A DNA stretch of 58,848 bases from a virus (lineage: Duplodnaviria; Caudoviricetes): IMG/VR virus record IMGVR_UViG_3300045974_000247, positions 1-58,848 of that record; one strand, given 5' to 3'. Below, in pieces: positions 6,824 through 18,770 of this stretch (positions are counted from its first letter, which is position 1; the number at the start of each line of letters is the position of its first letter). A program made the position numbers and the translations under genes. Under the pieces are notes generated by a model. That model saw only the letters and a list, made by a program, of their open reading frames with translations. It was not told where the DNA came from and did not search any database.

Positions 6824-7056
6824 GACTCTCCTCGCAGCAGTGCGGCGCGCTCTTGCTGGGCGCGCAGTTTGGTGTAGCGTCCGTGGAGGCGGCTGATGAA
6901 GAACACCCGTCGCCTCCCGCGCATCTCCGACTGCAACAGCTGGCGGAGCGCGGTCAGCGACAGGGTCTTCAACTGCTCGTTGAGCAGCTCCTGGGAAGCG
7001 AGGAGCTGCTCAACGGCCACCGCCGACAGGAGGAACTTGTCGGTGGTGGCGGGCAC
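6811..7056 (-). CDS. Hypothetical protein
   Basis: Coupled between the SSB-like gene and the polymerase. Confidence 0.6.
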   Translation of the reverse strand: MPATTDKFLLSAVAVEQLLASQELLNEQLKTLSLTALRQLLQSEMRGRRRVFFISRLHGRYTKLRAQQERAALLRGESWPL

Positions 7057-7904
7057 TAGAACTTGCCCTTGCCCTTCTTCGCGGCGGGGGCCTCGGCAGC
7101 GGGCTCCTCGTCAGCCTGCTTGTACTCCTGCTCGATGGCGGCCATGGCCTCCTCGCGCCGCGCCTCCAGCCCGTCGATGAGCACGGGGCTGATCGGCTCG
7201 CGCGCGGCCCAGGTCACCTTGAACTGGGACCGCTTGTCCTCGACGCAGTCCACGTCGCTGATGGTGAGGAGCGGGTGGAGGCTGTTGCGGGCGAGGTTGG
7301 TCACGTAGTCGGTCCAGCCCTTGCCGCTCGTCACCGGGAGCTTGAGCAGCGCCCAGCTGGCCGTCTTGACCGTGTCCTCGTCCACGTCGGCGGGGAGCGC
7401 GAGGAGGCGCCACCGGTTCTGGCACGCCTTGCCCTTGCTGTCCTCCTTGGCTCGAGCACCCAGCAGCTCCTCGGAGGCAGCGGACCCCCACTGGTTCATC
7501 GGGCACTCGGAGCAGCTCTCCGGCTTCGTGTACTCCCCGCTGGGCTTGCCCTTGGCGTTGAGGACCGGGTAGCCCTTGGCCGACTCGTGCGGCCGCATCT
7601 CCCCCTCCGTGCGCCCGAAGGCGTAGCAGCACGGCGGCGTGCGGTCGTCGGGGTCGAACTTCTTGTCGTACATGTCGTTCTCACGGATGTAGTCGAGGAC
7701 GATGAGGCCCACGGGCCCGTCCACCTTCGTGCCGCCGAGCTTCATCCCCGTCTGGGAGAAGCTCATCACGTTGGACGTGGGCGGTGGCACCGACTCCGCT
7801 GCCATCTGGGCATACTTGGCATACTTCTCCTCCAGGCTCCCCGGCTTGGCGAGAGTCTTGCCCTTGACGGGCACTGCGAGCGCTGCGGTTTTCTTGGTCG
7901 CCAT
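7056..7904 (-). CDS. Putative ssDNA-binding/annealing protein
   Basis: P.CYA, CSECPMNQWGS, GKACQN..RL pattern typical of proteins upstream of PolA in such siphoviruses; acidic/basic tail. Confidence 0.65.
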   Translation of the reverse strand: MATKKTAALAVPVKGKTLAKPGSLEEKYAKYAQMAAESVPPPTSNVMSFSQTGMKLGGTKVDGPVGLIVLDYIRENDMYDKKFDPDDRTPPCCYAFGRTEGEMRPHESAKGYPVLNAKGKPSGEYTKPESCSECPMNQWGSAASEELLGARAKEDSKGKACQNRWRLLALPADVDEDTVKTASWALLKLPVTSGKGWTDYVTNLARNSLHPLLTISDVDCVEDKRSQFKVTWAAREPISPVLIDGLEARREEAMAAIEQEYKQADEEPAAEAPAAKKGKGKF

Positions 7905-7907
7905 GTG

Positions 7908-8138
7908 TTACTCCTTCTCGTGGTACTCGATGGATGCGATGATGCTGCGTTCCGGGAGGCGAGAGCTGTCCCCCCGGCTGTTGATGAACGACGGGGGGAG
8001 GACATCGACGTTGAGCAGCTCAGCTCCCTCCTCCCGGAGGAGCGCGAGGGCACCGTTGATGGCGTCCTCCAGCTGCTTGATGTCCGCTCCCTCGACCAGC
8101 TTGATCTTGTACTTGGCCATGATCTTGTACCACCCCAT
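7908..8138 (-). CDS. Hypothetical protein
   Basis: In-operon ORF. Confidence 0.55.
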   Translation of the reverse strand: MGWYKIMAKYKIKLVEGADIKQLEDAINGALALLREEGAELLNVDVLPPSFINSRGDSSRLPERSIIASIEYHEKE

Positions 8139-8140
8139 GG

Positions 8141-8527
8141 TTACTTGCTCGCCTTGGTGAGGGAGAGCGTGGTGATGACGAACGGCACGACCCCAGGCAC
8201 GGTCTTCTTCGCGTCCAGCCGCTCCCGGAACGCAGCGTCATTCACGCGGCGCTGGAGCAAGTCGAACGCACCTGTCTTCTTGATGTACTTCTGCAACGCC
8301 TCCCAGTCCTCCACCTGGGCCACGGTGCGCGGGGAGAGGCTGGCTGTGGCGACCTTCCCCCGGGCCCCGTCGATGTTGACCTTGTCGAAGCTGTTCATGA
8401 TGTGCTGCTTCAGCGCTGCCTCCTCCTCCTTGAGCTTCTCGACCTCCTTGTCCAGCTCCAGCCGCTCGGAGCGCATCTTGTACGCGAGGTCGATGCACGC
8501 GCCCAGCGTCTTGGGGTACTTGATCAC
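8141..8527 (-). CDS. Conserved replication-region coiled-coil protein (Gam/Gp157-like)
   Basis: Coiled coil followed by V.DWEAL..YI....FDLLQRRV...VPGV. Confidence 0.65.
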   Translation of the reverse strand: MIKYPKTLGACIDLAYKMRSERLELDKEVEKLKEEEAALKQHIMNSFDKVNIDGARGKVATASLSPRTVAQVEDWEALQKYIKKTGAFDLLQRRVNDAAFRERLDAKKTVPGVVPFVITTLSLTKASK

Positions 8528-8745
8528 AGCTCGACCCGCTTGGGGAAGTTGAAGCTGAGCTGCTCGGGCACGCGCTCCGCAGCGAGCCCCTGGGCCGACT
8601 TGAGGACCTCGACCAGACGCACGTCCAGGACCGACTTGAGGCTGGCCTTGGCGACGTCAAACGTCACCTCGGCGCAGGCGCGCTCCTCCTCCCAGATGAC
8701 GTGCGTTTCCTCCCGCGTGACGACCACGACTGCGAAGCGACTCAT
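8524..8745 (-). CDS. Hypothetical protein
   Basis: Strong RBS GAGGAGGAG; first gene after the putative promoter. Confidence 0.65.
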   Translation of the reverse strand: MSRFAVVVVTREETHVIWEEERACAEVTFDVAKASLKSVLDVRLVEVLKSAQGLAAERVPEQLSFNFPKRVEL

Positions 8746-8787
8746 GGCACTCCTCCTCGGTTGGTTGACATCTTGGCAACGACTCCG

Positions 8788-8815
8788 ATTGTACGCTCAC
8801 GCGGGCCAGCGTAAA
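8788..8815 (-). promoter_or_regulatory. Putative sigma70-type promoter
   Basis: Minus strand TTTACG-N16-TACAAT in an intergenic gap. Confidence 0.55.
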
Positions 8816-8832
8816 GGCAGGACTTTGCCGCG

Positions 8833-9069
8833 TTACTTGGGCACCCCGGGTGGCTGAGCGATGCGCTCTGTCTCGACCTCGATGAGCTTGTCGAGGAAGT
8901 GCCGCGCCTTGGCGAGGTCCTGGAGCCCGTTCTTCTTGCGCCAGCGGTACACGTACTTGATGATCTGGGCCTCCATGTACGGGATGTCGTTGGCGAGCAC
9001 GAAGTCCCAGTGCTGAATCTCGGAGCGGTAGTGCTCCCCGCCCACCTGCGTCTCATTGGCCTTGCTCAT
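8833..9069 (-). CDS. DUF3310/SaV-like protein (T7 gp1.7-like nucleotide kinase family)
   Basis: QVGGEHY...IIKYVYRWRKKNGLQDLAKARHFL. Confidence 0.85.
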   Translation of the reverse strand: MSKANETQVGGEHYRSEIQHWDFVLANDIPYMEAQIIKYVYRWRKKNGLQDLAKARHFLDKLIEVETERIAQPPGVPK

Positions 9070-9593
9070 CGGAGCTTCTCCCATTCGTAGCTGAGGTGTT
9101 CGCACATCGACGACACTCCCTTGATCTCGTGCCGCGCGGTCTCCAGGTAGCTCAGCGCGCGGATGAACATGAGGCTGAGCCTCTGGGTCTTGTTCCCCAG
9201 CCGACGCTCCCGGAGGCACGTCCAGACCAGGTCGAGGGTGTCCGCTGTCTTGACGATGAACCCCTCCAGGTCCCCCAGCATCGGGATGGGGAGGGAGTGC
9301 TCAGCCACGAACACCTCCTCCATGCGGTCGAGGAGCGCGGACATGTCGGGGCTGGCGCGCTTGACGGGAGCGGGGATGTCCCCCGTGTCCACCTCTGGAG
9401 CGTCGTGGTAGAGGAGTGCCTGGAGCACGGGCCCGGGAGCTACCCCGTTGAGCTCGCACAGCTCCATCGCCACGACCATCGAGCCGTACACGTGGCGGGC
9501 GATGGTATGCTGCTCCACCGTCCGCACCGTGTGCAGGCGCACGAGGTCCCCGGCTTCGTACAGCGCCTCCATCCGCTTCAGGTTGGCCTTCAC
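9066..9593 (-). CDS. HD-domain nucleotide phosphohydrolase (YfbR-like)
   Basis: R.H...HTIARH, LYHDAPE..TGDIPAPVK, K.AD.LD. Confidence 0.87.
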   Translation of the reverse strand: MKANLKRMEALYEAGDLVRLHTVRTVEQHTIARHVYGSMVVAMELCELNGVAPGPVLQALLYHDAPEVDTGDIPAPVKRASPDMSALLDRMEEVFVAEHSLPIPMLGDLEGFIVKTADTLDLVWTCLRERRLGNKTQRLSLMFIRALSYLETARHEIKGVSSMCEHLSYEWEKLR

Positions 9594-10609
9594 TTGCCCC
9601 TCCTCGACAGCCACTCCAACGCTGCGTGACGCCAGTCGAGGGCAGAGCACTTGCGCGCCTCGGGTGGACTCTTGAGTCGCCAGGCTTTCCACAGGGGCTT
9701 GACGACGTTGTCCCAGAACGGGGTCTGGTACTCCTCCACGCTCGGGTCGATGCCGTGGTCCCAGAGCCGGAAGAAGTGCTGCATGTCGAGGTCCCACTCG
9801 ATGCAGTCCGCGGCCATCGGGTAGTGCGCGGCCAGCCCGCGCGTGTAGAGGTCCGGGGCAGGCTTGACGAGCTTGGTCGCTTCGTAGACCGGCCCCCGCT
9901 CCTTGACGCGGCTGTACACGGCTCCCCCGGGCCCCTCGGTGTAGACGTGGAGGCTGTCGCTGACCTGGGTGTAGGGCCCGACCTCGATGCCGAGCTTGTT
10001 GGCGATGTACTCCTGGAGCATCGACATGTGCACGACGTTGGCCCCGTAGGCTCCCCAGAGCATGTCGTTGGAGCGGTTGCACACCGTCATGTGCAGCTGG
10101 TCGGCCCGCACCTTGAAGTAGATGTGCGTGTTACAGGGCAGGTCCCGACTGGTCGAGCCGCCTGCCCCCTCCGAGCTGACTGCGTCCCCGTTGGGCGACC
10201 ACATCGCCACGACTGCGCGCCGGTCCTCCGGGTTCTTGAACAGCGCGTGGGTGACGTGGGTGAGCTGGTCGAACCCGAACCACTCGCGCCAGCGGAACCC
10301 GTAGGCTCCGTGGAACAGCTCCCCATCGTCGCTGAACTCCGCCATGCGGGGGTTGAAGACCCGGAGGAACCCGACATCGTTGCGCCCCTCCAGCATCCAG
10401 AGCCCCTCAAAGAAGTGGAAGAAGGGGTTGGCGTCGCGCTCCGGGGAGAACAGGACCCGTTCCTGGGGCCGGCTGTACACGGTGCTGACGGGCTGAGGGA
10501 CCTCGATGACTGGGCCTCCCCGGGAGTGACGCTCCACCCCCTGCTCGGCCATGAGCGCCATGCCGAGCGGGAGGGCTTCGTTGACGTTGCGGACGTTGAG
10601 GACGATCAC
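9590..10609 (-). CDS. Thymidylate synthase-family dUMP hydroxymethylase (YuA/M6-type)
   Basis: RDANPFFH, GAYG.RWR, DLPCN catalytic Cys, RSNDMLWGAYGANVVH (Asn, dUMP-specific), SLHVY. Confidence 0.88.
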   Translation of the reverse strand: MIVLNVRNVNEALPLGMALMAEQGVERHSRGGPVIEVPQPVSTVYSRPQERVLFSPERDANPFFHFFEGLWMLEGRNDVGFLRVFNPRMAEFSDDGELFHGAYGFRWREWFGFDQLTHVTHALFKNPEDRRAVVAMWSPNGDAVSSEGAGGSTSRDLPCNTHIYFKVRADQLHMTVCNRSNDMLWGAYGANVVHMSMLQEYIANKLGIEVGPYTQVSDSLHVYTEGPGGAVYSRVKERGPVYEATKLVKPAPDLYTRGLAAHYPMAADCIEWDLDMQHFFRLWDHGIDPSVEEYQTPFWDNVVKPLWKAWRLKSPPEARKCSALDWRHAALEWLSRRGK

Positions 10610-10830
10610 TTGGTCTCCTGGAACCCGTCGCACGAGCAGTCGCCGCACGGACCCTTGTCCCCGCGCTGGCGGGTGTAGAGGTGGTCCCCGAGCCGGTGGC
10701 CGCACTCGCACGTCTTCGCGCACGTCGCGCACTTGGCCGGGTCCTCGGCATGTGAGCACTGGACCGGCTCGACAACGGGGGTGGTCTGGGGCACTTCGGA
10801 CACTGCGTCAGGCTTCGTGATCTTGGCCAT
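10606..10830 (-). CDS. Small Cys/His-rich protein
   Basis: CECGH...H...C..C.C motif; RBS AGGAGGAG. Confidence 0.65.
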   Translation of the reverse strand: MAKITKPDAVSEVPQTTPVVEPVQCSHAEDPAKCATCAKTCECGHRLGDHLYTRQRGDKGPCGDCSCDGFQETK

Positions 10831-10832
10831 CG

Positions 10833-11693
10833 CTACTCCTCCTTGGGGGGTTGGTACTTGGAGCGTGGGCGACCCTCCCCGAGTCGCACGCGCTCATACT
10901 TGTCCAGCTCACACAGGCAGAACTGAATGTCGTGGGCAGTGAGCCGCCCTCCTCCTGGGAATGTCTCGAGCCACCGTGGCTGAATCTTCTCCAGCAGCGC
11001 GCGGATGAGGACCACGCCCTCGTCTGTACGGATGCCCTTCGTGAGCGGGGCCTTGCGCAGCCGGTTGAGTCCGCGCCTTGCCCCCGGGCCGGTGGGCGTC
11101 CAAGTCTCTGCGTCCTTCACCGGGTGGCGCCGCCAGAGCAAGTAGTCCTGGAGCACCTCCTTCGCCATGAACCCAGCGCCACCGAACCCGTGGACCTCCT
11201 GCATGACGTTGAAGCCAGCCTCCCACGTGTTGGTTGCCTCGATGGTGCTGACGATGTCCTCGGCACGGTCCCAGAGCGGCGCCAGGTACTCGTCCCCGAC
11301 CACCTTGTACTTGCGGACGCCTGCGTCACCGCCCCTGATCATGTACGCGCCGGTCCAGAACGTCTTGCCGGCGCGCTCGCACTCCTCCTCCGCGCGCTTG
11401 ATGCGAGCGGTCGAGTGAGCGCCCAACCAGCCGAGCGCGTCAGACGCCGCCACCGTGCCCGTGAAGCGTCGGAGCGCGCAGTTGTAGAGGGCCACGTGGA
11501 GCGGGGCCTCGCTGTACTTCTGATACACCTTGAGGAAGGCCTGCGTGGTCCGGTCGTGGACGCGCTGGACGTTGGTGAACTTGTACGTCTGGAGAATCTT
11601 GTCCTTGGTCCACGGCGCTGCCTGACCTCCGAGCTTGCGGAGCCGGATGTGCTCGCGCTCCTCGATGTACTTCCACAGTGGCTTGGCGTTCAC
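10833..11693 (-). CDS. aGPT-Pplase1 / 5-hmdU DNA kinase helical-domain family protein
   Basis: I.ERE.IR..K......PWT.D.IL..YKFTNV.R..DR.T, FWTGAY, G...FMA.E, GPGARRGL.RL, DIQF.LCE.DKY.R. Confidence 0.88.
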   Translation of the reverse strand: MNAKPLWKYIEEREHIRLRKLGGQAAPWTKDKILQTYKFTNVQRVHDRTTQAFLKVYQKYSEAPLHVALYNCALRRFTGTVAASDALGWLGAHSTARIKRAEEECERAGKTFWTGAYMIRGGDAGVRKYKVVGDEYLAPLWDRAEDIVSTIEATNTWEAGFNVMQEVHGFGGAGFMAKEVLQDYLLWRRHPVKDAETWTPTGPGARRGLNRLRKAPLTKGIRTDEGVVLIRALLEKIQPRWLETFPGGGRLTAHDIQFCLCELDKYERVRLGEGRPRSKYQPPKEE

Positions 11694-11809
11694 GTAAACG
11701 TCCTTTCTCTGGCTAGGGGGTTCCCCCTATAGTGGTTGGTGCGGGCAGGCGTAGTCTTTCTCAATGACCTACCAAGTTGTTGTCGCCGCCCAGAACAAGA
11801 ATGTTGTCG

Positions 11810-12208
11810 TCAAGGTTGACGCCTCCAACGAGCAGTCCGCGAAGGAGATTGCGAAGTGGCTGGTGGCGCACGCCCAGCACCTCCAGGCGCACGGGGTCCA
11901 AGCGAAGAAGTAGCGTCACGGGGCGCCAGAGCCTCCTTGAGCCTGAGCAGGGGTACGGCCAGGTGCGCTACCATACCAAGCGGGTCATCAGGAGCAGCCG
12001 CCACCTCGTCGAGCACGTCCTGTGCCGCCTTGCGCAGTCGAGTGATCTCCTTGCTCGCGCAGTCGCAGTCGGTGTATCCCTCGCAGCCCTCCTCGTGGTA
12101 GCTCTCGGGGGGCGCTCGGTTGCGCGCGTCCTCCACACACCCCGGACAGGGCAGCTCCGAGCCCGGGGGCCGGTTGTGTCGGGTGCAACCGTACACGCTC
12201 TTGGTCAC
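11810..12208 (-). CDS. Hypothetical Cys-rich protein
   Basis: GTG start overlapping the upstream stop. Confidence 0.5.
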   Translation of the reverse strand: MTKSVYGCTRHNRPPGSELPCPGCVEDARNRAPPESYHEEGCEGYTDCDCASKEITRLRKAAQDVLDEVAAAPDDPLGMVAHLAVPLLRLKEALAPRDATSSLGPRAPGGAGRAPPATSQSPSRTARWRRQP

Positions 12209-12402
12209 GACATCACCAGGGGCCGGTCCTTGCGGTCCGGGTGCTGCCCGCACCACTCGGTGGGGCGCGCGGGGATGCGGATGGGGATGATCTGGACCTG
12301 TCCCGCCCCCTGCGGGATGGGCATGGCTCCGGGAGGATTGAGGCGGCACTCGCCCCCGCCCAGCGGGTAGAAATACGGGCACGTCTGGCACGTTGCGGAC
12401 AT
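12205..12402 (-). CDS. Small Cys-rich protein
   Basis: CQTC.YF...GECR..PP...WCGQH, a common phage motif. Confidence 0.65.
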   Translation of the reverse strand: MSATCQTCPYFYPLGGGECRLNPPGAMPIPQGAGQVQIIPIRIPARPTEWCGQHPDRKDRPLVMS

Positions 12403-12405
12403 GGG

Positions 12406-13080
12406 CTACCTCGATGCGTCGAACATCGACGCGATGGTCTCATCGATCAGGCGTGCGTTCTCGCGCACGCAGTGCCCCCCAATGGGGCCCGGCATGTAGC
12501 TCAACCAGGGGCGCGCGACCTCGGGCCGTCCGAGCTTCGCATACCCCTCGTTGTACGTCTGGTTGGCGTGCGTGTAGACATCGGCCAGCTCCACGCCGTG
12601 CTTCTTCGCCTGCTCGGCGCACCAACGGTTGACGAGGATCATCATCCCGTACTGCGTCGTGTCCATGAGCTTCAGAAGCTCGGTGGTCTCGGTGTTGGGC
12701 ATGATGTACGTCGTCACCCCCACGACCTGGAACGCTCTGGCGATGTCCTCAGCCTCCGGGCCCGCGATGTACTTGACGAAGCTCTGGATGCCGCGCGCGA
12801 GATGCGGGTGCGTCCCCCTGATGGGGGAGTGGTTGACTCCGAGCTTGCGACACGTACCCACCGGCACCGACGAGTGGATGACGGTGCGGTGCGGCTGGAA
12901 CAACTCCTCGTACAAGCGGACCTGGTCGAGGAACTGCGGCCCGTGGTACGGGAAGCAGATGTGCAGCTCGTCAGCCAAACCCTTCACGCGGATGCCCTGC
13001 GGTGGGTCATGTAGCACCCCCCCAATGACTGCCTGGAGCCCCCGACCAACCTCCCCCGCTCCCACGATCACTCGCTCCAT
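12406..13080 (-). CDS. UDP-glucose/GDP-mannose dehydrogenase-family protein (compact)
   Basis: GAGEVG Rossmann motif, IHSSVPVGT, HSP, TE..KL..T, GPIGGHCV catalytic Cys; alternative start at 13134. Confidence 0.8.
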   Translation of the reverse strand: MERVIVGAGEVGRGLQAVIGGVLHDPPQGIRVKGLADELHICFPYHGPQFLDQVRLYEELFQPHRTVIHSSVPVGTCRKLGVNHSPIRGTHPHLARGIQSFVKYIAGPEAEDIARAFQVVGVTTYIMPNTETTELLKLMDTTQYGMMILVNRWCAEQAKKHGVELADVYTHANQTYNEGYAKLGRPEVARPWLSYMPGPIGGHCVRENARLIDETIASMFDASR

Positions 13081-13333
13081 GACCCACCCTTTCTCATCCG
13101 TGACCCTGCGTGTCTCTTCCGTGTGCAGACTCATGTCGCCTCCCAGCCTCCCGGTTCCCCCGGGGGCTTCGTTCGATTCCCGCCCCGACCCTCCGAGAGG
13201 CCCCTGGCGCTCAGCCTCCCCGCAGCCCCGTAGGCTGGCAGAGGGCCCTACCCCCTCCACGAGGACCCTCAGACCCCCATCCGCACAGTGCCTAGGGGCT
13301 CCGGATGGGGGGTAGACCCCCCCGAAAGGGTAC

Positions 13334-14278
13334 TCACGCCAGCCCGGTCTTCCGGTACCAGCGCACCGTCTCTCGCAGACCCTCTCGCAGGCCGACTCCT
13401 GCCTTGAGACCGAGCCACTTGCGAGCACGCGTCACGTCAGCCACCGAGAGCCTGATGTCTCCGCCACGGAATGCCTCCTGCTGGCACGACGTGCGCTTGC
13501 GCTCGCTGGGCGTCAGCTGCTCCTCCAAGAGGTCGGAGAGCTGGAGGAGCGTCGTGCCCTTGCCCATGGCGACGTTGTACACGAGGTTGACGTGCTTGGT
13601 CGTGGCGGCGAGGAGGTTGGCGGTGACCACGTTGCTGACGTACGTGAAGTCACGCGTGGTCGTCCCATCCCCATAGATCACATACGGCTCTCCCGACAGC
13701 ATCCTCTTGATCCACCGGGGGATGACGGCGCTGTAGCTGCCGTCCGGGTCCTGGCGCGGACCGTACACGTTGAAGTACCGCAGCCCGACCGTGTCCATGC
13801 CGTAGCTCTTGCCGTAGGCCAGCGCGTAGCTCTCCACGCACTGCTTGCTCGCTGCGTAGGGCGACAGCGGGGCCCCCACGATGACCTCGCGCCGCTTGTC
13901 CCCCAGAGCGTCCCCGTACACGGAGGAGCTGGAGGCGTACACGAAGCGGCGCACCCCGTGACGCCTGGCGTGCTCGAGAACTCGCAGGGTCCCATGCGTG
14001 TTGTTGAGGTGAGTCGTCATGGGGTCCGCGATGGACCGCGGCACGCTGGGGAGCGCGGCCTGGTGGAAGATGACGTCCACGCCGCTGAGGTCGAAGTTGT
14101 CGTGGACGATGTCGAGCGGGAGCACGTGGAGCCGCGCGTTGCCCTCGTGACCCGTGAGGTTCTCCTTCCTCCCGGTCGAGAGGTTGTCGATGACGATGAC
14201 CTCCCAGTCGCGCGCGAGGCAAGCGTCAACGAGATGCGACCCGATGAACCCGGCACCGCCGGTGATGGCGACCCTCAC
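13334..14278 (-). CDS. NAD-dependent UDP-HexNAc(A) 4-epimerase (WbpP/TviC-like SDR)
   Basis: TGGAGFIGSHL, HQAALPSVPRSI.DP, YASSSSVYG, SPYAASK, RYFNVYGPRQDP.GSYSAVIP.W. Confidence 0.9.
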   Translation of the reverse strand: MRVAITGGAGFIGSHLVDACLARDWEVIVIDNLSTGRKENLTGHEGNARLHVLPLDIVHDNFDLSGVDVIFHQAALPSVPRSIADPMTTHLNNTHGTLRVLEHARRHGVRRFVYASSSSVYGDALGDKRREVIVGAPLSPYAASKQCVESYALAYGKSYGMDTVGLRYFNVYGPRQDPDGSYSAVIPRWIKRMLSGEPYVIYGDGTTTRDFTYVSNVVTANLLAATTKHVNLVYNVAMGKGTTLLQLSDLLEEQLTPSERKRTSCQQEAFRGGDIRLSVADVTRARKWLGLKAGVGLREGLRETVRWYRKTGLA

Positions 14279-14637
14279 TTGGCACGCTCCTTCTTGCAGG
14301 CCGGCTGAGCCGGTGGGTTGAGGTTGAGACAGCTGATGCCGAAGCTCGTGACGTAGCAGACGATGCCGGGCCGGTTGAGGTCCTGGACCCGGTAGACCTG
14401 ACCCACCACGCCATCCGAGAAGATGACGTGCGCGGCTCCCGGGGGCCCGTCGTCCAGCGTGGCCTTGGAGCAGCCGATGAGCCCGCCCAGCAGGACGAGG
14501 AGGCAGAGGAGGATGAAGAGGAGCGCGGGCCAGTTGGGGCGCGCCCTCTGCCGGATGAGCTTGTCGATGCACACGGGGCAGGTCCCCGCCGTGCCGCAGA
14601 CGAGGCAGTTGGGCTTGATGACGGTCTTGTCGCTCAT
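14275..14637 (-). CDS. Membrane/lipoprotein-like hypothetical protein
   Basis: CxxC pairs, then a hydrophobic helix ending in LIGC. Confidence 0.6.
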   Translation of the reverse strand: MSDKTVIKPNCLVCGTAGTCPVCIDKLIRQRARPNWPALLFILLCLLVLLGGLIGCSKATLDDGPPGAAHVIFSDGVVGQVYRVQDLNRPGIVCYVTSFGISCLNLNPPAQPACKKERAK

Positions 14638-15215
14638 CGCGCCTCCACGATCAACTCCGGGTTGTGCTTGAGGCTCTCTGGCGGGTTGAAGTGCCAGAAG
14701 CGCCCCTGGTCCTTGAAGAGTCGGATGTGCTTGTACTTGTGGATGGTCGGCTTGAAGTAGCTCACCACGCGCATCCCCGACAGCAGGCGGTTGATCTCGG
14801 GGCTGTTGACCGTCATGGCGGCATACGGCTGGTCGAGGTAGTACTGGAGCCAGAAGTGCTGCGCTCCCGTGTGCCAGGCCTCGACAGCCTCGCGCACCTC
14901 GATATGGTCCGGGTGCTTGGGGGCGAGTGGAAGGAGGATGTGGCCGTGGTCCCCGCTGAGGTGGCTTGAGAGGAAGCAGCGGATGGCCTTGGTGCCGTCC
15001 CCCGGCTTGCCCCCGCCCCTCCGCTCCTTCGCCTCCAGGCCGCTCCACGAAGCCCCCATGGCCTTGGCGTATGCCTCTGCCTCGGGGCCGCGCTTCCTCG
15101 TGCCGGAGTAGACGGTGATGATGTGCACCGGGATGTTGTCCTTGATCCAGTTGGCGATGTGACCGCCCAGCGACAGGAAGGCGTCGTCAGCGTGAGGCTC
15201 GATGATGTGGATCAC
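14634..15215 (-). CDS. PIG-L/LmbE-family N-acetylhexosamine deacetylase
   Basis: EPHADDAFLSLGG (HxDD) and HPDH motifs, DQPY. Confidence 0.85.
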   Translation of the reverse strand: MIHIIEPHADDAFLSLGGHIANWIKDNIPVHIITVYSGTRKRGPEAEAYAKAMGASWSGLEAKERRGGGKPGDGTKAIRCFLSSHLSGDHGHILLPLAPKHPDHIEVREAVEAWHTGAQHFWLQYYLDQPYAAMTVNSPEINRLLSGMRVVSYFKPTIHKYKHIRLFKDQGRFWHFNPPESLKHNPELIVEAR

Positions 15216-15664
15216 GAGTCATCCTCCGTGTCGAAGGGGATCAACGACAGGTTGGGGGTGTAGGGGAGCTGATGCACCGCCAAGCCCAGTTGACGAGCGG
15301 CAGCGACCAGTCTCTGCATCGGGTTGCGTTCCAGCTCCTTCTTTGCGTCGCTGAGGGCGCGTCGGGTGCCGTTGAGTTCATCTCGCAGCCGGTACACCTC
15401 GCTGATCAGCGCGCCCACCACGGACCCTCCGCGCTCTGCCCAGATGGCCAGCTGTGCGTCGTTGAACTTCTCCGGCGCTGCCGAGAGGGGGGCGAAGACA
15501 ACCGTGCCCTGTTGCAGCTCCAAGACCTCCTCAGGGGTCCAGTCCCCGTATGCTTCCAACGTCAGCTGAACCGGGCCAGAGATAACAGTCGCCTTCTGGC
15601 CCGCAGCGGTTCGCACGACCTGTGTGGGGCGGTTCATCCGCACCATGTCGATGACGCCCCTCAT
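15212..15664 (-). CDS. Hypothetical protein
   Basis: Coupled overlaps on both sides. Confidence 0.55.
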   Translation of the reverse strand: MRGVIDMVRMNRPTQVVRTAAGQKATVISGPVQLTLEAYGDWTPEEVLELQQGTVVFAPLSAAPEKFNDAQLAIWAERGGSVVGALISEVYRLRDELNGTRRALSDAKKELERNPMQRLVAAARQLGLAVHQLPYTPNLSLIPFDTEDDS

Positions 15665-16491
15665 AGCCCCTCCGCGCCGAGCTTGAACGCCTTCTTCCAT
15701 GCGACCTTGACGTCGTTCATCGTGTCGCTCTCCATCCCGCCCCACGCCTTCTTCTGCACCACCGTCACGACCTCGGGGTACAGCGCGCCGAGCTTCGCTG
15801 CCGTGTCGCTCTGGAGCTGGGCCGTCCGGGCCCCCGCGCACCCTCCCGGAGCGTTGGCCGGTCCCGGGCTCGCGCGGTAGACGAGGGACACGACGTTGGG
15901 CTCGCCAGCGAGGAGCAGCTGGAGCGTCATGTTGAAGTCGGACATGGGCGACCCCTTGCCGATGCCCCTGGTGAACCGGGCCCCCGTGTTCATGACGGTG
16001 GGCACGTTGTAGGCCAGGCAGCAACCGAGCGCGCGGCCCACCTCGATGCTGTCGTGGAGGTTGGTGTCGTAGTCCCAGTGATGCTGGCGCATCCCCCACG
16101 CCGCGTGCGCGTAGTCCTTGAGGGATGTCTCGAGCCAGCCCAGCCCATCCAGCCACTGCTGCTCAGAGGTCGCAGTGAGAAAGCGCGGGTTGACCCCAGG
16201 GGTCATCGGCTGGCGGACGAGGAGCGTCGTGTCGTCATCGAGGAGGACGATGTGCTTGTGGCGCTGCTTGACTGCGTACTCCAGCATCCAGTCGCGCGTG
16301 GCGGCGAGCGTCATGCCGGTGGGGCGGTTGGCGGGGCACTCGATGGCCCCGAACCTTCCCTGCGCGAGGTGCGCCTTGACCTCCTCCTTGGGAACGAACA
16401 GCGTGGTGTTCTTCTTGGCGAGCGCGGGGAGGCTGTCCCACGTCTTCTGCTTCGACACTCGGCCCCTGGTAGCAATGTAGACTTGGATCAT
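15661..16491 (-). CDS. GT-A fold glycosyltransferase (TET/JBP-associated, GREB1/J-GT-like)
   Basis: VYIATRGR, V...E, TR.W.L, LLDDD, SDF..TLQLL..G..N, NAPGGC...R. Confidence 0.75.
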   Translation of the reverse strand: MIQVYIATRGRVSKQKTWDSLPALAKKNTTLFVPKEEVKAHLAQGRFGAIECPANRPTGMTLAATRDWMLEYAVKQRHKHIVLLDDDTTLLVRQPMTPGVNPRFLTATSEQQWLDGLGWLETSLKDYAHAAWGMRQHHWDYDTNLHDSIEVGRALGCCLAYNVPTVMNTGARFTRGIGKGSPMSDFNMTLQLLLAGEPNVVSLVYRASPGPANAPGGCAGARTAQLQSDTAAKLGALYPEVVTVVQKKAWGGMESDTMNDVKVAWKKAFKLGAEGL

Positions 16492-16498
16492 GGCACTC

Positions 16499-18550
16499 TC
16501 AGAACTTCCCGCCGTGGAAGAAACCATCCCAGTGCTCGGCGCACGCCTTGGGACCTTGCTTCAGCCAGTGCTCGCTGTTGCGGACAATCCAGAGCTTCTG
16601 GTTGCCCTGCTTCGTCATGACGGGGAGCCCGTCCTTGTACGCTCTGCGGAACCCGGCTGACTTGAGCTCCCGGGCGAACCCGTTGATGGTGGAGCGGTGG
16701 AAGTCCCCCATCGGATTGAAGAGCGTGTGGAGCTGCGTGGTCGTGAACAGACAGCACTTCTCTGCCGCCAGCGCGTTGCCGAGCGGCATGAGGGTGCGGT
16801 GCGGGTCCTCCTTGAGGTCGTGGACCCAGCGGCCCAGGTCGGACTTGTTGTCCACGATCATGTCGCGCTTGGCCTTGGTCTGGAAGGCGGGGCCCTTGGG
16901 GTTGAAGTCGGAGATGTCGAGGTGTTCCAGGTAATACCTCAGGTGGGCGGTGCCTCCGCGCTTGAACCGCCACGTGTCGAACTCATGGTAGAACCGGAGG
17001 GGCGCGGGGTGACTGGTGACCTCGTGTACGAAGAAGCGGCGGTCAGAGTCCTGGAGGAAGAAGGCGTTGGGCTCGTTGGACGTGAAGAAGTAGTTGATGC
17101 AGTCAGGGATGGTCACCAGGGGCATGTACTTGGCGTTGATGTTGACGCGCTCCTGGGTGATCAGCGCCTTGAGCCGGTTGGTGTCGGTGCGCCGGTCCGT
17201 GCCCGTGATCTCCTCCCCCACGATGAACTGTTTGTTCCTCGCCCACTCGTTGAAGCTGCCGTGAATCTCGGCATCCCCGATGACTCCCCCGTTCGTACCA
17301 TAGATGTCCTTGAGCGTCAACCCCAGGAGCGTCTTCCCCGTGCCGTGCGACACGCCCCAGACGAGCACGCCGCTGAAGAGCTTGACGCCCGGGTGCTGTA
17401 GCGGGTACGCTGCCCACTTGAGGAACCACTCGCGCGCTCCCGGCTCCGCTCCCGCGAAGATGTGGTCCAGGAGGTCGTGGAAGGGCGTGACGTCCCCCTT
17501 GACTGACTCAACCCCCCAGCCGCGCCAGAGATTGCAGTCACGCGCCTCCGTCACGAGCGGCTGGCCGGGGGCGTAGGTGAGGTGGTTGAGCGTGAAGCGA
17601 CCCGGCCACTCCAGCCACGCCTTGGCGAGGGGCTTGGTCTTGACCTTCCCCTCCGAGTCGCGCGTTGCGTACTTGCGGTCAGCGTAGGACACCGTCAGGA
17701 AGTCATGGACCGACAGCATCTCGTTGGTCTTGCGCTCCAGCAGCAGCGGAGGATAGCGGATAAGCAGCACCTCCTCGTTCATCGACCAGAGCGCCGCAGC
17801 CTCTTCGTACACGGGGGCTTCCTCGACCAGCGACTCCAAAGCCTCAACCGAGTGCTGGAGGAGGAAGTCATCGAGCCCCACCTTGGCGCCGTCAGGTCCG
17901 GGCGGGAGGGCCAGGAGCTTCGGGAGGGCTCCGCGCCGCATCAGCTCATACGCGAGCTTGCGCTGAGCGGTCAGCGCATCCGGCTTGGTGCCCACGTCGC
18001 TGTCCCAGATGATCGCAACGGGTCGCTGGTTCCACCTGGCCTCCTGGAGCACCGGGAGCAGCTCGGGCATGCCGCGCTTGGCCGCGCGAAACACGTCCAC
18101 TCCCCCCAAGCCGATGCACGCGACCCCCCGAGCGCATGCGACTGCCGCCTTGATCTCCCCCTCCGTGATGTAGACGGTCTTGGTGGGGTCCTGGAGCACC
18201 GCGTGCCACCTCTCCTTGAGCAGCGGCGGCAGGTAGACCTCGTTGAGCGTGCCGCCCGGTTGCCAGTAACGTGGAGGGCGCGCGAGGTTGGCGGCGAAGC
18301 CCGTGGGCGCGCCTAGGTAGCGGACCCGGAAGAAGGAGGTGCGCTTGCCCTGGTCATCGAAGTAGGGGATGCGCATGGACGGGCGGTTGTCTTGGGAACC
18401 GAGCCGCTGGGTTTCTGCGCTGCTGAGTTCCTCGAATCCCAGGAGCTTGGCCTGGGCATCGGTCAGGCCTGACTCGGCAAGCCGGACCCGCATCAGGGCG
18501 CGCGACCCTGCTGCCGCGTTACGTGCTCCGCTTGTCATTGCCACGCCCAT
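16499..18550 (-). CDS. Primase-helicase (Toprim/DUF3854-like plus SF3-like NTPase)
   Basis: IPYFD, ITEGEIKA, WDSD, K.GLDD; C-terminal GVSHGTGKT, FNEW, EE, LK.LIT, TSN. Confidence 0.88.
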   Translation of the reverse strand: MGVAMTSGARNAAAGSRALMRVRLAESGLTDAQAKLLGFEELSSAETQRLGSQDNRPSMRIPYFDDQGKRTSFFRVRYLGAPTGFAANLARPPRYWQPGGTLNEVYLPPLLKERWHAVLQDPTKTVYITEGEIKAAVACARGVACIGLGGVDVFRAAKRGMPELLPVLQEARWNQRPVAIIWDSDVGTKPDALTAQRKLAYELMRRGALPKLLALPPGPDGAKVGLDDFLLQHSVEALESLVEEAPVYEEAAALWSMNEEVLLIRYPPLLLERKTNEMLSVHDFLTVSYADRKYATRDSEGKVKTKPLAKAWLEWPGRFTLNHLTYAPGQPLVTEARDCNLWRGWGVESVKGDVTPFHDLLDHIFAGAEPGAREWFLKWAAYPLQHPGVKLFSGVLVWGVSHGTGKTLLGLTLKDIYGTNGGVIGDAEIHGSFNEWARNKQFIVGEEITGTDRRTDTNRLKALITQERVNINAKYMPLVTIPDCINYFFTSNEPNAFFLQDSDRRFFVHEVTSHPAPLRFYHEFDTWRFKRGGTAHLRYYLEHLDISDFNPKGPAFQTKAKRDMIVDNKSDLGRWVHDLKEDPHRTLMPLGNALAAEKCCLFTTTQLHTLFNPMGDFHRSTINGFARELKSAGFRRAYKDGLPVMTKQGNQKLWIVRNSEHWLKQGPKACAEHWDGFFHGGKF

Positions 18551-18770
18551 ACCCCCTCCCGATGCCCGCCTTCACGACAGCGCTCGCAACCTCTGCGTCA
18601 GTTCGGCTGCTCAGTAGCTGGGTCATCCCAGCCTCGATACAGAGACGCAGCAGCGCTGAGAGTGTCAGCATCGAAGCGTTCTCACCTGGCATGAAGAGGC
18701 GCAAGCGGCCCTCCCAGAGGGTCAGCCGCTGGTACAGATCAGCGGGTACTTTGAGGTAGATGACACGCAC
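18519..18770 (-). CDS. Ribbon-helix-helix-like DNA-binding protein
   Basis: VIYLKVPADLYQRL...TLSALLRLCIEAG; first gene of the leftward operon. Confidence 0.5.
   Translation of the reverse strand: MRVIYLKVPADLYQRLTLWEGRLRLFMPGENASMLTLSALLRLCIEAGMTQLLSSRTDAEVASAVVKAGIGRGYGRGNDKRST

What the first reader, a model, noticed from the sequence alone, without database searches (positions are those of the whole stretch)
8833..16491. Candidate new thymidine hypermodification pathway: 5hmdU plus an amino-uronic sugar
Seen: one co-oriented cluster encodes a dUMP hydroxymethylase (YuA/M6-type RSND.WGAYGAN), an HD hydrolase, a DUF3310 protein, aGPT-Pplase1, a UDP-sugar dehydrogenase (GGHC), a WbpP/TviC-like 4-epimerase, a PIG-L deacetylase and a J-GT/TET-associated-type glycosyltransferase. 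Established: M6, ViI and phiW-14 make 5hmdU and add amino-acid or amine groups after phosphorylating it; trypanosome J-GT glucosylates 5hmU; TviB/TviC and WbpO/WbpP pairs make UDP-GalNAcA. I recognise no P-loop 5hmdU kinase, amino acid:DNA transferase, PLP enzyme or radical SAM gene here. Inference: the phage makes UDP-HexNAc(A), transfers the sugar to 5hmdU in DNA and de-N-acetylates it. The product would be a zwitterionic base-J analogue (e.g. galactosaminuronyl-hmdU), and aGPT-Pplase1 may add a further step.
Basis: partly seen in the sequence, partly recalled or inferred. Interest (0 to 1): 0.92.

Follow-up and report, generated by a model that had tools for sequence, protein, structure and literature searches.

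The report
Phage sugar-on-thymine DNA modification cluster
A complete pond-phage genome carries the genes that put hydroxymethyl-uracil into DNA next to a DNA-type sugar transferase and a small sugar-tailoring cassette, so it probably decorates its thymines with an amino sugar, a chemistry not yet shown for any phage.

Summary
At 8833-16491 (minus strand) a complete 58.8-kb phage genome encodes DUF3310, an HD 5'-deoxynucleotidase, an M6/YuA-type dUMP hydroxymethylase, aGPT-Pplase1, a WbpP/WbgU/TviC-like epimerase, a PIG-L deacetylase and a TAGT-family GT-A glycosyltransferase. The "UDP-sugar dehydrogenase" is only partly confirmed. It is a 224-aa two-domain UGDH-like protein without the UDP-binding domain, and three catalytic residues appear substituted. 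The genome gave no match to the M6 kinase or to AADT, PALP, radical-SAM or TET/JBP models. The 5hmdU core is syntenic with phage M6, but a sugar cassette sits where M6 has its amino-acid cassette. In 8 of 10 viral loci encoding this GT subfamily, the GT lies with aGPT-Pplase1 and the dUMP hydroxymethylase. None of the 10 has the sugar cassette.

Best reading (about 0.5): 5hmdU in DNA is O-glycosylated directly, without a kinase, using a phage-tailored UDP-HexNAc-type donor, and the sugar is then de-N-acetylated on the DNA. The uronic-acid step is doubtful.

The TS + Pplase1 + nucleotidase + glucosyltransferase co-location is already in print for pelagiphages, and epimerase-dependent HexNAc/HexA glycosylation of 5hmC is known. 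I therefore call this a new variant of a known kind. No chemistry was tested.

The parts
15661..16491 (-). TAGT-family GT-A glycosyltransferase (276 aa), the predicted 5hmdU-DNA glycosyltransferase
   Evidence: Pfam TAGT 29.1 bits against a 27.5 cut-off. phrog_842 E 2.4e-28. 46 of 46 relatives match TAGT. AF2 pLDDT 96, GT-A fold; best PDB folds are COLGALT1, TarP, POMGNT1 and GnT-I at TMq 0.44-0.50. Invariant DDD at residues 85-87.
15212..15664 (-). B150, a 150-aa ORF of unknown function; its start overlaps the GT stop by 4 nt and its stop overlaps the PIG-L start by 4 nt
   Evidence: No Pfam, NCBIfam or PHROG hit. The Atlas gave no lead. Coordinates.
14634..15215 (-). PIG-L/LmbE-type zinc deacetylase (193 aa), the predicted de-N-acetylase of the DNA-linked HexNAc
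   Evidence: PF02585 30.9 bits against 28.2. Best PDB sequences are the teicoplanin pseudoaglycone deacetylases Dbv21 and Orf2*, E 1.9e-5; both the N-terminal PHxDD and the HPDH stretches align. No match in GenBank phages or by pattern scan of IMG/VR.
14275..14637 (-). memb120, a 120-aa ORF with N-terminal CxxC...CxxC and one hydrophobic helix ending in a lipobox-like motif; role unknown
   Evidence: Translation. No Pfam or NCBIfam hit. Weak phrog_20857, E 0.0011.
13334..14278 (-). SDR nucleotide-sugar 4-epimerase (314 aa) of the WbgU/WbpP/TviC type
   Evidence: PF01370 222 bits. PDB WbgU 1.5e-73, WbpP 9.9e-70. NCBIfam TviC is the best model at 249 bits, below its 760-bit equivalog cut-off. 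GxxGxxG and YxxxK are visible in the translation.
12406..13080 (-). dh224, a two-domain UGDH-superfamily protein (224 aa) with invariant GGHC; no UDP-binding domain; possible nucleotide-sugar dehydrogenase of unknown specificity
   Evidence: No Pfam hit. TIGR03026 15.2 bits against 189.8. 1976 relatives of about 225 aa. AF2 pLDDT 93.7. Foldseek top hits are UDP-Glc/UDP-ManNAc dehydrogenases at TMq 0.70-0.75, with beta-hydroxyacid dehydrogenases close behind. Profile against PDB: 4r16, E 0.0057.
12205..12402 (-). orf65, a small Cys-rich ORF directly after dh224 in the same frame
   Evidence: GC3 0.85-0.92 in that phase. Translation. No Pfam hit.
11810..12211 (-). small133, a doubtful ORF; only its 5' part has coding-like GC3
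   Evidence: No family hit.
10833..11693 (-). aGPT-Pplase1 (Pfam HMUDK_hel), 286 aa, with an invariant Cys261-Glu262 pair; function not established
   Evidence: PF18723 119 bits. 31% identity to M6 gp55. Alignment of 7 GT-linked orthologues. No PDB sequence match.
9590..10609 (-). dUMP hydroxymethylase of the M6/YuA type (339 aa)
   Evidence: 43% identity to M6 gp58, E 3e-84. phrog_5131 E 9e-111. Best PDB match is the CMP hydroxymethylase MilA, 1.5e-18, with Asn here where MilA has Asp.
9066..9593 (-). HD-domain 5'-deoxynucleotidase (175 aa), predicted to clear competing dT nucleotides
   Evidence: PF12917 60.4 bits. 34% identity to M6 gp59.
8833..9069 (-). DUF3310 protein (78 aa), homologue of M6 gp61
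   Evidence: PF11753 36 bits. 53% identity to M6 gp61. The PHROG families it matches are mostly named nucleotide kinases.

Best explanation
This phage replaces thymidine by 5-hydroxymethyl-dU before replication. The M6-type dUMP hydroxymethylase makes the nucleotide, and the HD nucleotidase and the DUF3310 protein bias the nucleotide pools. After replication the phage decorates the hydroxymethyl group directly with a sugar.

The transfer is made by the TAGT-family GT-A enzyme from a UDP-sugar. As in T4 and base J, it needs no kinase and no amino-acid:DNA transferase.

The genes packed between the GT and aGPT-Pplase1 tailor the sugar. The WbpP/WbgU/TviC-like epimerase supplies a UDP-HexNAc of the right C4 configuration. 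The PIG-L enzyme removes the N-acetyl group after transfer, as its relatives do on GlcNAc-aglycone conjugates. This leaves a primary amine in the major groove. The small UGDH-like protein may oxidise the sugar, but this is the weakest step.

aGPT-Pplase1 is a constant companion of the hydroxymethylase. It probably acts on 5hmdU in DNA in its own right. Its reaction is unknown.

Shown here: gene identities, gene order, absences and recurrence across loci. Inferred: every chemical step.
For: Completeness and gene order:
- The genome is complete, so absences count.
- M6 gp55, gp58, gp59, gp61 and gp62 have hits in the same order in the window. M6 gp51 (AADT), gp52 (PLP), gp53 (rSAM) and gp54 (kinase) have none at E 0.01.

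Absences over all six frames:
- PF18724 ADDT, PF04055, PF00291 and PF12851 give no match at E 1.
- Controls: PF18724 finds M6 gp51 at 2.3e-48. PF18723 finds the window's own gene.
- The one strict Walker-A match on a coding-like ORF lies in the N-terminal tail of a Pam3 gp34-like protein.

The GT:
- It is a TAGT member with a GT-A fold and an invariant DDD.
- Of 10 IMG/VR loci that encode this GT subfamily, 8 have aGPT-Pplase1, the GT and an M6-type dUMP hydroxymethylase within a few kb. One of these, L087, is an M6-like phage.
- 0 of 10 have hits to the M6 kinase, AADT, PLP or rSAM proteins.
- 0 of 5 whole records, 4 of them complete, have PF18724.

Cluster structure:
- GT, B150, PIG-L, memb120 and the epimerase overlap by 4 nt each.
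- No minus-strand terminator-like site lies inside the cluster.
- Identical short contigs from a second study bridge the primase/GT and GT/B150 junctions.

Sugar enzymes:
- The epimerase is closest to UDP-HexNAc(A) 4-epimerases.
- PIG-L is closest to deacetylases of a glycoside-linked GlcNAc.

Precedent from passages I read:
- Phage GT-A enzymes put HexNAc and HexA on 5hmC in DNA, and many depend on a neighbouring epimerase (10.1101/2023.12.21.572611).
- M6 gp55 was dispensable for the in vitro M6 reaction (PMC8989533).
Against: - No chemistry was measured. Everything after gene identity is inference.
- The GT's own Pfam score is only 1.6 bits over the cut-off and covers the N-terminal 93 residues.
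- Its nearest solved folds are protein and teichoic-acid GTs, at modest TM of 0.44-0.50.
- 0 of 10 related GT loci carry the epimerase, dh224 or PIG-L. No second example of the full cassette was found in IMG/VR, in 50,697 GenBank phage records, or in the metagenome and genome scans.
- The dh224 family lies in 80 of 80 viral and 21 of 21 metagenome loci without any GT, hydroxymethylase or Pplase1. There it sits next to SDR, DegT and GT4-type genes and virion genes. It is a general phage sugar module that could serve another acceptor.
- dh224 lacks the UDP-binding domain. In weak alignments it has Ile/Val, Thr and Asn where UGDHs have Glu, Asn and Asp. The residue roles are recalled, not tested.
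- A membrane-type ORF sits inside the cassette.
- The epimerase is below the TviC equivalog cut-off.
Confidence: 0.5

Rival explanations
1. A plain base-J-like product. The GT glycosylates 5hmdU with an ordinary host UDP-sugar such as UDP-glucose, as the relatives without a cassette presumably do. The epimerase, dh224, PIG-L and the membrane ORF are a separate imported module that modifies another target, such as the host envelope or virion proteins.
For: 0 of 10 related GT loci have the cassette, yet 8 of 10 keep Pplase1-GT-hydroxymethylase. The dh224 family is never linked to 5hmdU genes elsewhere: 0 of 80 and 0 of 21 loci. It often lies by virion genes and GT4/GT2 genes. A membrane-type ORF lies inside the cassette.
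Against: The cassette is inserted exactly between the GT and Pplase1, inside the replication/nucleotide module. It runs in the same direction, with 4-nt overlaps from the GT through to the epimerase. Epimerase-dependent DNA GTs are documented. The window's GT and its two closest relatives (74% and 63% identity) share insertions that the other ten aligned GTs lack, which fits a changed donor. No second GT that could use the tailored sugar was found among the 48 ORFs scanned.
Confidence: 0.2
2. UDP-GlcNAc is oxidised by dh224 and epimerised to UDP-GalNAcA. This is transferred to 5hmdU and de-N-acetylated, giving a zwitterionic galactosaminuronyl-hmdU.
For: TviC is the best NCBIfam model for the epimerase. 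dh224 has a UGDH-like fold and an invariant Cys in GGHC. JGI labels several relatives as UDP-ManNAcA dehydrogenase. In other phages the family co-occurs with UDP-GlcNAc 2-epimerase, DegT and Gfo/Idh/MocA-type genes, as in uronic amino-sugar pathways (the pathway analogy is recalled).
Against: dh224 has no UDP-binding domain and scores 15 bits against a cut-off of 190. Three residues recalled as catalytic in UGDH appear substituted. Foldseek scores beta-hydroxyacid dehydrogenases nearly as well. The C4 configuration cannot be read from sequence.
Confidence: 0.15
3. The GT and cassette act on a non-DNA acceptor altogether. The DNA keeps bare 5hmdU, or a product made by aGPT-Pplase1 alone.
For: The nearest solved folds are TarP, a phage-borne wall teichoic acid GlcNAc transferase, and protein GTs. 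About 65% of GT-containing contigs in the published mining had no base-modification gene nearby.
Against: The GT is a TAGT family member: 46 of 46 relatives match. 8 of 10 loci link it to the hydroxymethylase. It sits between the primase and the nucleotide genes.
Confidence: 0.1
4. An aGPT-Pplase1-centred route. Pplase1 uses its Cys-Glu pair as the clade-2 enzymes do. It activates 5hmdU, or a glycosylated 5hmdU, and joins a nucleophile such as the amine of a de-N-acetylated sugar, or a hydride to give T. The final linkage is then not a simple O-glycoside.
For: Cys261-Glu262 is invariant in 7 of 7 GT-linked orthologues. In clade-2 enzymes a conserved Cys and the neighbouring Glu are essential (PMC8989533; PMC13458397). 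Pplase1 always travels with the hydroxymethylase (PMC9599517). How 5hmdU becomes T is stated to be unknown (PMC5889632).
Against: No kinase is present to make a leaving group. No detectable sequence or profile relation to clade 2 was found here. There is no precedent.
Confidence: 0.07

Closest known systems
Thymidine hypermodification of Pseudomonas phages M6/YuA (5-NedU), with ViI, PaMx11 and PhiW-14 as variants
   Same: An M6-type dUMP hydroxymethylase, HD hydrolase, DUF3310/gp61 homologue, aGPT-Pplase1 (gp55 homologue) and family-A polymerase occur in the same order. The hydroxymethyl group of 5hmdU in DNA is the attachment point. The end product probably carries a primary amine.
   Different: There is no 5hmdU DNA kinase, no clade-2 transferase (AADT), no PLP enzyme and no radical-SAM enzyme. 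A glycosyltransferase and sugar-nucleotide genes occupy the cassette position. Activation would come from the UDP-sugar donor, not from phosphorylating the base.
Phage TET/5mYOX-associated glycosyltransferase clusters on 5hmC (Burke 2021; Pyle 2023/2024), especially 'subclass II' GT + epimerase pairs
   Same: A TAGT/GT-A transferase sits next to a sugar epimerase. HexNAc and HexA products are documented there.
   Different: The hydroxymethyl base is made before replication by a thymidylate-synthase homologue and is uracil, not cytosine. The genome has no TET/JBP gene and no such match. A PIG-L deacetylase and a mini-UGDH are added. In the passages I read, neither is mentioned in those clusters ('deacetylase' occurs 0 times in the preprint).
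Pelagiphage (HTVC023P-type) TS + aG/PT-PPlase1 + 5'-deoxynucleotidase + putative glucosyltransferase module (PMC9599517)
   Same: It has the same four-gene core near PolA, noted as a likely thymidine hypermodification system. My loci L003-L005, L086-L089 and L092 show the same core.
   Different: That paper reports only co-location. It proposes no product and, in the passages read, no sugar-nucleotide genes. The window adds the epimerase, dh224 and PIG-L cassette.
Base J (beta-D-glucosyl-hydroxymethyluracil) of kinetoplastids
   Same: The predicted linkage is a sugar O-linked to the hydroxymethyl of 5hmU in DNA, added by a GT directly from a UDP-sugar.
   Different: In base J, 5hmU arises by oxidation of T in DNA by JBP. 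Here it arises from a nucleotide-level hydroxymethylase. The sugar here is probably an amino sugar, not glucose. Homology to J-GT was not tested.
GT then PIG-L logic of GPI (PIG-A/PIG-L), mycothiol (MshA/MshB), bacillithiol (BshA/BshB) and teicoplanin (GtfA/Orf2*) biosynthesis
   Same: A GlcNAc is first transferred to an acceptor hydroxyl and then de-N-acetylated by a PIG-L/LmbE zinc enzyme. The window's PIG-L matches Dbv21 and Orf2* best. The pathway logic itself is recalled.
   Different: The acceptor would be a base in double-stranded DNA. No PIG-L enzyme is known to me to act on DNA.
SP-15 / YerA41 / Carin-5 oligosaccharide-modified thymidines
   Same: These are sugar-bearing thymidine derivatives in phage DNA. 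Carin-5 has a block with GTs and a putative GlcNAc deacetylase.
   Different: Those sugars hang on a dihydroxypentyl linker with phosphate. The phages are myoviruses with UDG-like PolA, with a different gene set and no aGPT-Pplase1/TAGT core reported in the passages read.

Membership tests
TAGT (TET-associated glycosyltransferase, Pfam PF20691) | Score at or above the Pfam gathering cut-off | tested here: met
   29.1 bits against 27.5, residues 2-93 only. 46 of 46 aligned relatives match at E <= 0.001, best 7.5e-22.
TAGT (TET-associated glycosyltransferase, Pfam PF20691) | GT-A fold with an acidic DxD-type metal/UDP site | tested here: met
   AF2 model pLDDT 96. Foldseek hits are GT-A enzymes. 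D85-D86-D87 are invariant or nearly so.
TAGT (TET-associated glycosyltransferase, Pfam PF20691) | Genomic association with a TET/JBP dioxygenase | tested here: not met
   No PF12851 match in the complete genome at E 1. The partner is a thymidylate-synthase-type hydroxymethylase instead.
TAGT (TET-associated glycosyltransferase, Pfam PF20691) | Glycosyl transfer to a hydroxymethylpyrimidine in DNA | not testable with these tools
   Needs an enzyme assay.
M6/ViI-type thymidine hypermodification pathway | dUMP hydroxymethylase supplying 5hmdU | tested here: met
   43% identity to M6 gp58. Asn at the uracil/cytosine-discriminating position, where MilA has Asp. The role of this position is recalled.
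M6/ViI-type thymidine hypermodification pathway | P-loop 5hmdU DNA kinase (5-HMUDK) | tested here: not met
   M6 gp54 has no tblastn hit at E 0.01. The strict Walker-A scan finds only a Pam3 gp34-like protein and a non-coding-like ORF. Kinases of ViI, PaMx11 and PhiW-14 were not used as queries.
M6/ViI-type thymidine hypermodification pathway | Clade-2 aGPT-Pplase (amino acid:DNA transferase, PF18724) | tested here: not met
   No match at E 1. The positive control on M6 gives 2.3e-48.
aGPT-Pplase clade 1 (Pfam PF18723 HMUDK_hel) | Full-length match above the cut-off | tested here: met
   119 bits against 25, profile positions 7-277 of 281.
UDP-sugar 6-dehydrogenase (UGDH/WbpO/TviB; TIGR03026) | Family model score above the cut-off | tested here: not met
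   15.2 bits against 189.8. No Pfam UDPG_MGDP_dh domain hit.
UDP-sugar 6-dehydrogenase (UGDH/WbpO/TviB; TIGR03026) | Rossmann domain plus helical central domain with a catalytic Cys | tested here: met
   Foldseek TMq 0.70-0.75 to 3phl, 1dli, 7kws and 4r16. Cys204 in GGHC is invariant in 34 of 34 sequences.
UDP-sugar 6-dehydrogenase (UGDH/WbpO/TviB; TIGR03026) | C-terminal UDP-sugar-binding domain | tested here: not met
   The protein and its roughly 225-aa relatives end about 20 residues after the Cys. TM normalised by target is only 0.42-0.44.
UDP-sugar 6-dehydrogenase (UGDH/WbpO/TviB; TIGR03026) | Catalytic Glu, Asn and Asp beside Lys and Cys (roles recalled) | tested here: inconclusive
   In a weak profile alignment (E 0.0057) Lys is kept, but Glu aligns to Ile/Val and Asn to Thr. 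The residue four after the Cys is an invariant Asn.
UDP-HexNAc(A) 4-epimerase (WbpP/WbgU/TviC) | Extended SDR with GxxGxxG and YxxxK; closest to this subgroup | tested here: met
   WbgU 1.5e-73, WbpP 9.9e-70. Motifs are visible.
UDP-HexNAc(A) 4-epimerase (WbpP/WbgU/TviC) | Equivalog-level score to TviC | tested here: not met
   249 bits against a cut-off of 760.
PIG-L/LmbE deacetylase (PF02585) | Score above the cut-off, with both metal-binding stretches | tested here: met
   30.9 bits against 28.2. PHxDD and HPDH align to Dbv21/Orf2*. The metal-ligand roles are recalled.
Base J pathway | JBP-type thymidine hydroxylase | tested here: not met
   No Tet_JBP match.
Base J pathway | Homology of the GT to trypanosome J-GT | not tested
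   No J-GT sequence was available from a tool.

The most novel reading that the evidence does not exclude
This is a kinase-independent thymidine hypermodification in which 5hmdU in phage DNA is O-glycosylated with a phage-made HexNAc-type sugar. The sugar is then de-N-acetylated on the DNA by a PIG-L enzyme. The product is an amino-sugar base-J analogue, cationic, or zwitterionic if the mini-UGDH really makes the uronic acid. It would be the first glycosylated 5hmdU chemically defined in a bacteriophage and the first PIG-L deacetylase acting on DNA. It would reach an amine in the major groove by a sugar route instead of the amino-acid or polyamine route.
Probability: 0.35. Interest if true: 0.8.

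Novelty: new variant of a known kind. Interest (0 to 1): 0.62.

Why it matters
All chemically defined 5hmdU-derived hypermodifications that I saw described use the kinase plus AADT route (5-NedU, 5-NeOmdU, 5-AcNmdU, putrescinyl-T, glutamyl-T, dapT). All end in an amine or amide side chain.

This genome, and at least eight related viral loci, show a second route built on the same 5hmdU core that swaps that cassette for a DNA glycosyltransferase. The window is the only example found with its own sugar-tailoring genes. It gives a concrete and cheap reconstitution target: five or six small genes, with predicted masses in hand.

If the product is an amino sugar, three things follow. It would add a new natural DNA base. 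It would add a new substrate class for PIG-L enzymes. It would provide a reactive amine handle for DNA labelling.

The comparison also sharpens an open question, the function of clade-1 aGPT-Pplase. This protein travels with the hydroxymethylase whichever cassette is present.

Finally, the roughly 225-aa mini-UGDH family is large, confined to uncultured phages in my searches, and uncharacterised.

Tried and rejected
- **Near-identical DNA in GenBank phages.** None found.

- **Single-protein pattern scans of IMG/VR.** The scans for dh224 and PIG-L found no relatives. The dh224 profile scan did.

- **Search for a second copy of the full cassette.** I used the closest dh224 relatives as queries. 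The genome-contig scan found nothing. The metagenome scan found 21 loci, none above 49% identity and none with 5hmdU genes. P0002, the 60% relative on a 50.9-kb NCBI contig, could not be located; it carries no accession.

- **Complex prediction of GT with aGPT-Pplase1.** The verdict was 'no answer'. This is no evidence either way.

- **Sequence and profile links from clade-1 Pplase.** No link was found to solved structures or to M6 gp51.

- **The Walker-A hit at 7056-7904.** I considered it as a hidden kinase and rejected it. The motif lies in the first 17 residues of a Pam3 gp34-like protein. Its neighbour is Pam3 gp33-like.

- **B150.** The Atlas gave no lead.

- **Sequencing runs.** No RNA holder is listed. 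Both holders are kept as contigs, so base modification cannot be seen. The gaps of X2 mean nothing.

- **Papers not reached.** Iyer et al. 2013, which defined TAGT and aGPT-Pplase, is not held. What I say of it is recalled or taken from citing papers. Supplementary tables of the Pyle, Lee and T-dioxygenase papers were not opened. They may list this contig or relatives, or GT sequences close to this one.

- **Basis for 'not in print'.** My statements that glycosylated 5hmdU and PIG-L enzymes in DNA clusters are not in print rest only on searches and on the passages read.

- **Pfam coverage.** Pfam was run on 48 window ORFs. It was not run on the plus-strand structural genes beyond the terminase.

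Full report
**What the window is.** The window is a whole virus record of 58,848 bp with direct terminal repeats, rated 100% complete. G+C is about 65%. Spurious ORFs abound at this G+C, so I called genes by third-position G+C and by homology. No near-identical DNA exists among 50,697 GenBank phage records. The primase-helicase is 40-43% identical to those of Pseudoxanthomonas phage PW916 and Stenotrophomonas phage AXL3. Short contigs identical to parts of the region occur in a second pond-metagenome study. Among them are pieces that bridge the primase/GT, GT/B150 and Pplase1/small-ORF junctions. The gene order is therefore not an assembly artefact of one sample.

**Checking the observation.** All genes of the finding lie on the minus strand. 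In the order of transcription they are:
- primase, 16499-18550
- TAGT glycosyltransferase, 15661-16491
- B150, 15212-15664
- PIG-L, 14634-15215
- memb120, 14275-14637
- epimerase, 13334-14278
- a 254-nt gap
- dh224, 12406-13080
- orf65, 12205-12402
- the doubtful small133, 11810-12211
- aGPT-Pplase1, 10833-11693
- dUMP hydroxymethylase, 9590-10609
- HD nucleotidase, 9066-9593
- DUF3310, 8833-9069
- small ORFs, a Pam3 gp33/gp34-like pair, and a family-A DNA polymerase at 4991-6823

From the GT to the epimerase, each start overlaps the preceding stop by 4 nt. No minus-strand terminator-like site lies inside the cluster.

**The 'dehydrogenase'.**
- The 224-aa protein has no Pfam hit. It scores 15 bits against the 190-bit cut-off of the nucleotide-sugar dehydrogenase model.
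- It belongs to a large family of proteins of about 225 aa: 1976 hits. A few are labelled by JGI as UDP-ManNAcA dehydrogenase.
- The family has an invariant GxGEVG, an STVPxGT-like strand, a conserved Lys in a TEAxKL helix, and an invariant GGHC.
- A confident model (pLDDT 93.7) superposes best on UDP-glucose and UDP-ManNAc dehydrogenases, with TM 0.70-0.75 by query but 0.42-0.44 by target. Beta-hydroxyacid dehydrogenases follow closely.
- It therefore has the first two UGDH domains and lacks the UDP-binding third domain.
- In the weak profile alignment to 4r16 (E 0.0057), the Glu of the 'PE' motif aligns to Ile/Val and the Asn four residues after the Lys aligns to Thr. The residue four after the Cys is an invariant Asn, where I recall an Asp in UGDHs. 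The residue roles are recalled.
- In 80 of 80 viral loci and 21 of 21 metagenome loci the family occurs without any GT, hydroxymethylase or Pplase1 homologue of the window. Among the 80 viral loci it sits next to SDR genes (28), DegT aminotransferases (27), GT4/GT2-type genes, UDP-GlcNAc 2-epimerases (10) and a virion protein (21).
- It is a general phage sugar-nucleotide component of unknown specificity. Calling it TviB/WbpO-like goes beyond the evidence.

**Absences.** The genome is complete, so absences can be tested.
- M6 gp51 (AADT), gp52 (PLP), gp53 (radical SAM) and gp54 (kinase) have no tblastn hit at E 0.01. M6 gp55, gp58, gp59, gp61 and gp62 hit in order.
- Six-frame searches with PF18724 (ADDT), PF04055, PF00291 and PF12851 found nothing at E 1.
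- As controls, PF18724 finds M6 gp51 at 2.3e-48 and PF18723 finds the window's Pplase1.
- A strict Walker-A scan gave two hits. One is on a non-coding-like ORF. The other is in the N-terminal tail of a Pam3 gp34-like protein.
- Kinases from ViI, PaMx11 or PhiW-14 were not used as queries, so a very divergent kinase is not excluded.

**Comparative evidence for the GT.**
- The GT has 1182 representatives at E <= 0.001.
- All 46 relatives that I aligned match Pfam TAGT.
- The model is a GT-A fold (pLDDT 96) with an invariant DDD.
- Ten IMG/VR loci encode this subfamily, at 26-43% identity.
- Eight of the ten (L003, L004, L005, L086, L087, L088, L089, L092) have aGPT-Pplase1, the GT and an M6-type hydroxymethylase together, usually followed by HD, DUF3310 and the polymerase. 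The other two have a weaker TS-like hit and a dCMP deaminase.
- L087 is an M6-like phage: its Dda is 48%, its RNR 58% and its polymerase 51% identical to M6. There the GT stands where M6 has gp51-gp54.
- None of the ten has hits to M6 gp51-54.
- None of five whole records, four of them complete, has PF18724.
- None of the ten has the epimerase, dh224 or PIG-L.
- L005 has a second TAGT-like GT. L089 has a radical-SAM/SPASM gene beside its GT.
- A GenBank metagenome-assembled phage annotates 'glucosyl transferase - pyrimidine hmase - hd domain' in a row.

**Mechanism.**
- Shown: gene identities, order, recurrence and absences.
- Inferred, step 1: the hydroxymethylase makes 5hmdUMP. It has Asn at the position where the CMP-specific MilA has Asp.
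- Inferred, step 2: the HD nucleotidase and the DUF3310 protein bias the nucleotide pools.
- Inferred, step 3: the polymerase incorporates 5hmdU.
- Inferred, step 4: the GT transfers a sugar from a UDP donor directly to the hydroxymethyl group, so no kinase is needed.
- Inferred, step 5: the epimerase, closest to UDP-GlcNAc/GalNAc(A) 4-epimerases, supplies the donor. This matches the published epimerase-dependent phage DNA GTs that install HexNAc or HexA on 5hmC.
- Inferred, step 6: PIG-L acts after transfer. Its best solved relatives de-N-acetylate a GlcNAc already attached to an aglycone, and the GT-then-PIG-L order is the rule in GPI, mycothiol and bacillithiol synthesis (recalled). The result would be an amine in the major groove. 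That is the same physicochemical end as the amino-acid and polyamine routes.
- The dh224 step is open.
- aGPT-Pplase1 keeps an invariant Cys-Glu pair. It accompanies the hydroxymethylase whichever cassette is present (PMC9599517). M6 gp55 was dispensable in vitro. I found no statement of its function in the passages read from four papers.

**What is already known.** For each paper I read only the named passages or section.
- PMC9599517 notes TS + aG/PT-PPlase1 + 5'-deoxynucleotidase + a putative glucosyltransferase together in pelagiphages. [quoted passage not shown]
- The Pyle et al. preprint (section 9, read in full, and other passages) reports GT-A hits split between 5mYOX and ThyS neighbours, epimerase-dependent GTs, and HexNAc, HexA and other sugars on 5hmC.
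- The 2026 T-dioxygenase paper links phage T-dioxygenases to GTs.
- Carin-5, YerA41 and SP-15 carry oligosaccharides on a dihydroxypentyl-uracil.
- In five literature searches I found no chemically defined glycosylated 5hmdU in a bacteriophage and no PIG-L or mini-UGDH in a DNA-modification cluster. Supplements were not seen.

**Verdict.** The cluster is real and the annotation is largely right. The core idea, direct glycosylation of 5hmdU without a kinase, is well supported by comparative genomics, but as a gene association it is partly anticipated in print. The tailored amino-sugar product is plausible and so far unique to this genome. The uronic-acid and zwitterion detail is weak. I rate it a new variant of a known kind, with interest 0.62.

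Noticed in passing
window 12406-13080; loci L006-L085 and L093-L113: The roughly 225-aa 'mini-UGDH' family is large: 1976 hits, and 200 confirmed stretches in IMG/VR. It has no match in 50,697 GenBank phage records at E 1e-10. It sits beside SDR, DegT, GT4/GT2 and UDP-GlcNAc 2-epimerase genes and a virion gene. It looks like an uncharacterised phage nucleotide-sugar enzyme that lacks the UDP-binding domain.
   Followed up: partly
window 14275-14637 (-): This is a 120-aa ORF inside the sugar cassette. It has an N-terminal CxxC...CxxC, then a hydrophobic helix ending in a lipobox-like motif. No family was found.
   Followed up: no
window 13081-13333: A 254-nt stretch without clear coding signal lies between the epimerase stop and the dh224 start. 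It is the only sizeable gap between the GT and dh224. Its RNA structure was not examined.
   Followed up: no
window 12205-12402 and 11810-12211 (-): A Cys-rich 65-aa ORF follows the dh224 stop in the same frame. The next ORF, small133, has coding-like GC3 only in its 5' part, and its true extent is unclear.
   Followed up: partly
L005:445-1200 and L005:3280-3963; L089:8859-9806: One related phage has two TAGT-like GTs flanking the hydroxymethylase, suggesting a possible disaccharide. Another has a radical-SAM/SPASM gene next to its GT.
   Followed up: no
window 10833-11693 (-); alignment A4: Clade-1 aGPT-Pplase keeps an invariant Cys-Glu pair near its C-terminus in 7 of 7 GT-linked orthologues. 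It shows no detectable sequence or profile relation to solved structures or to M6 gp51.
   Followed up: partly
window 7056-8527 (-): A Pam3 gp34-like protein (282 aa) and a Pam3 gp33-like protein (128 aa) form a pair between the nucleotide genes and the polymerase. The former has a chance Walker-A-like string in its N-terminal tail.
   Followed up: partly
window 35012-41488 and 43123-47661 (+): Two very long open frames of 2158 and 1512 aa lie in the structural module. They were not annotated.
   Followed up: no
window 8000-19000: Contigs identical to parts of this phage occur at low depth in a second pond-metagenome study, X2.
   Followed up: partly
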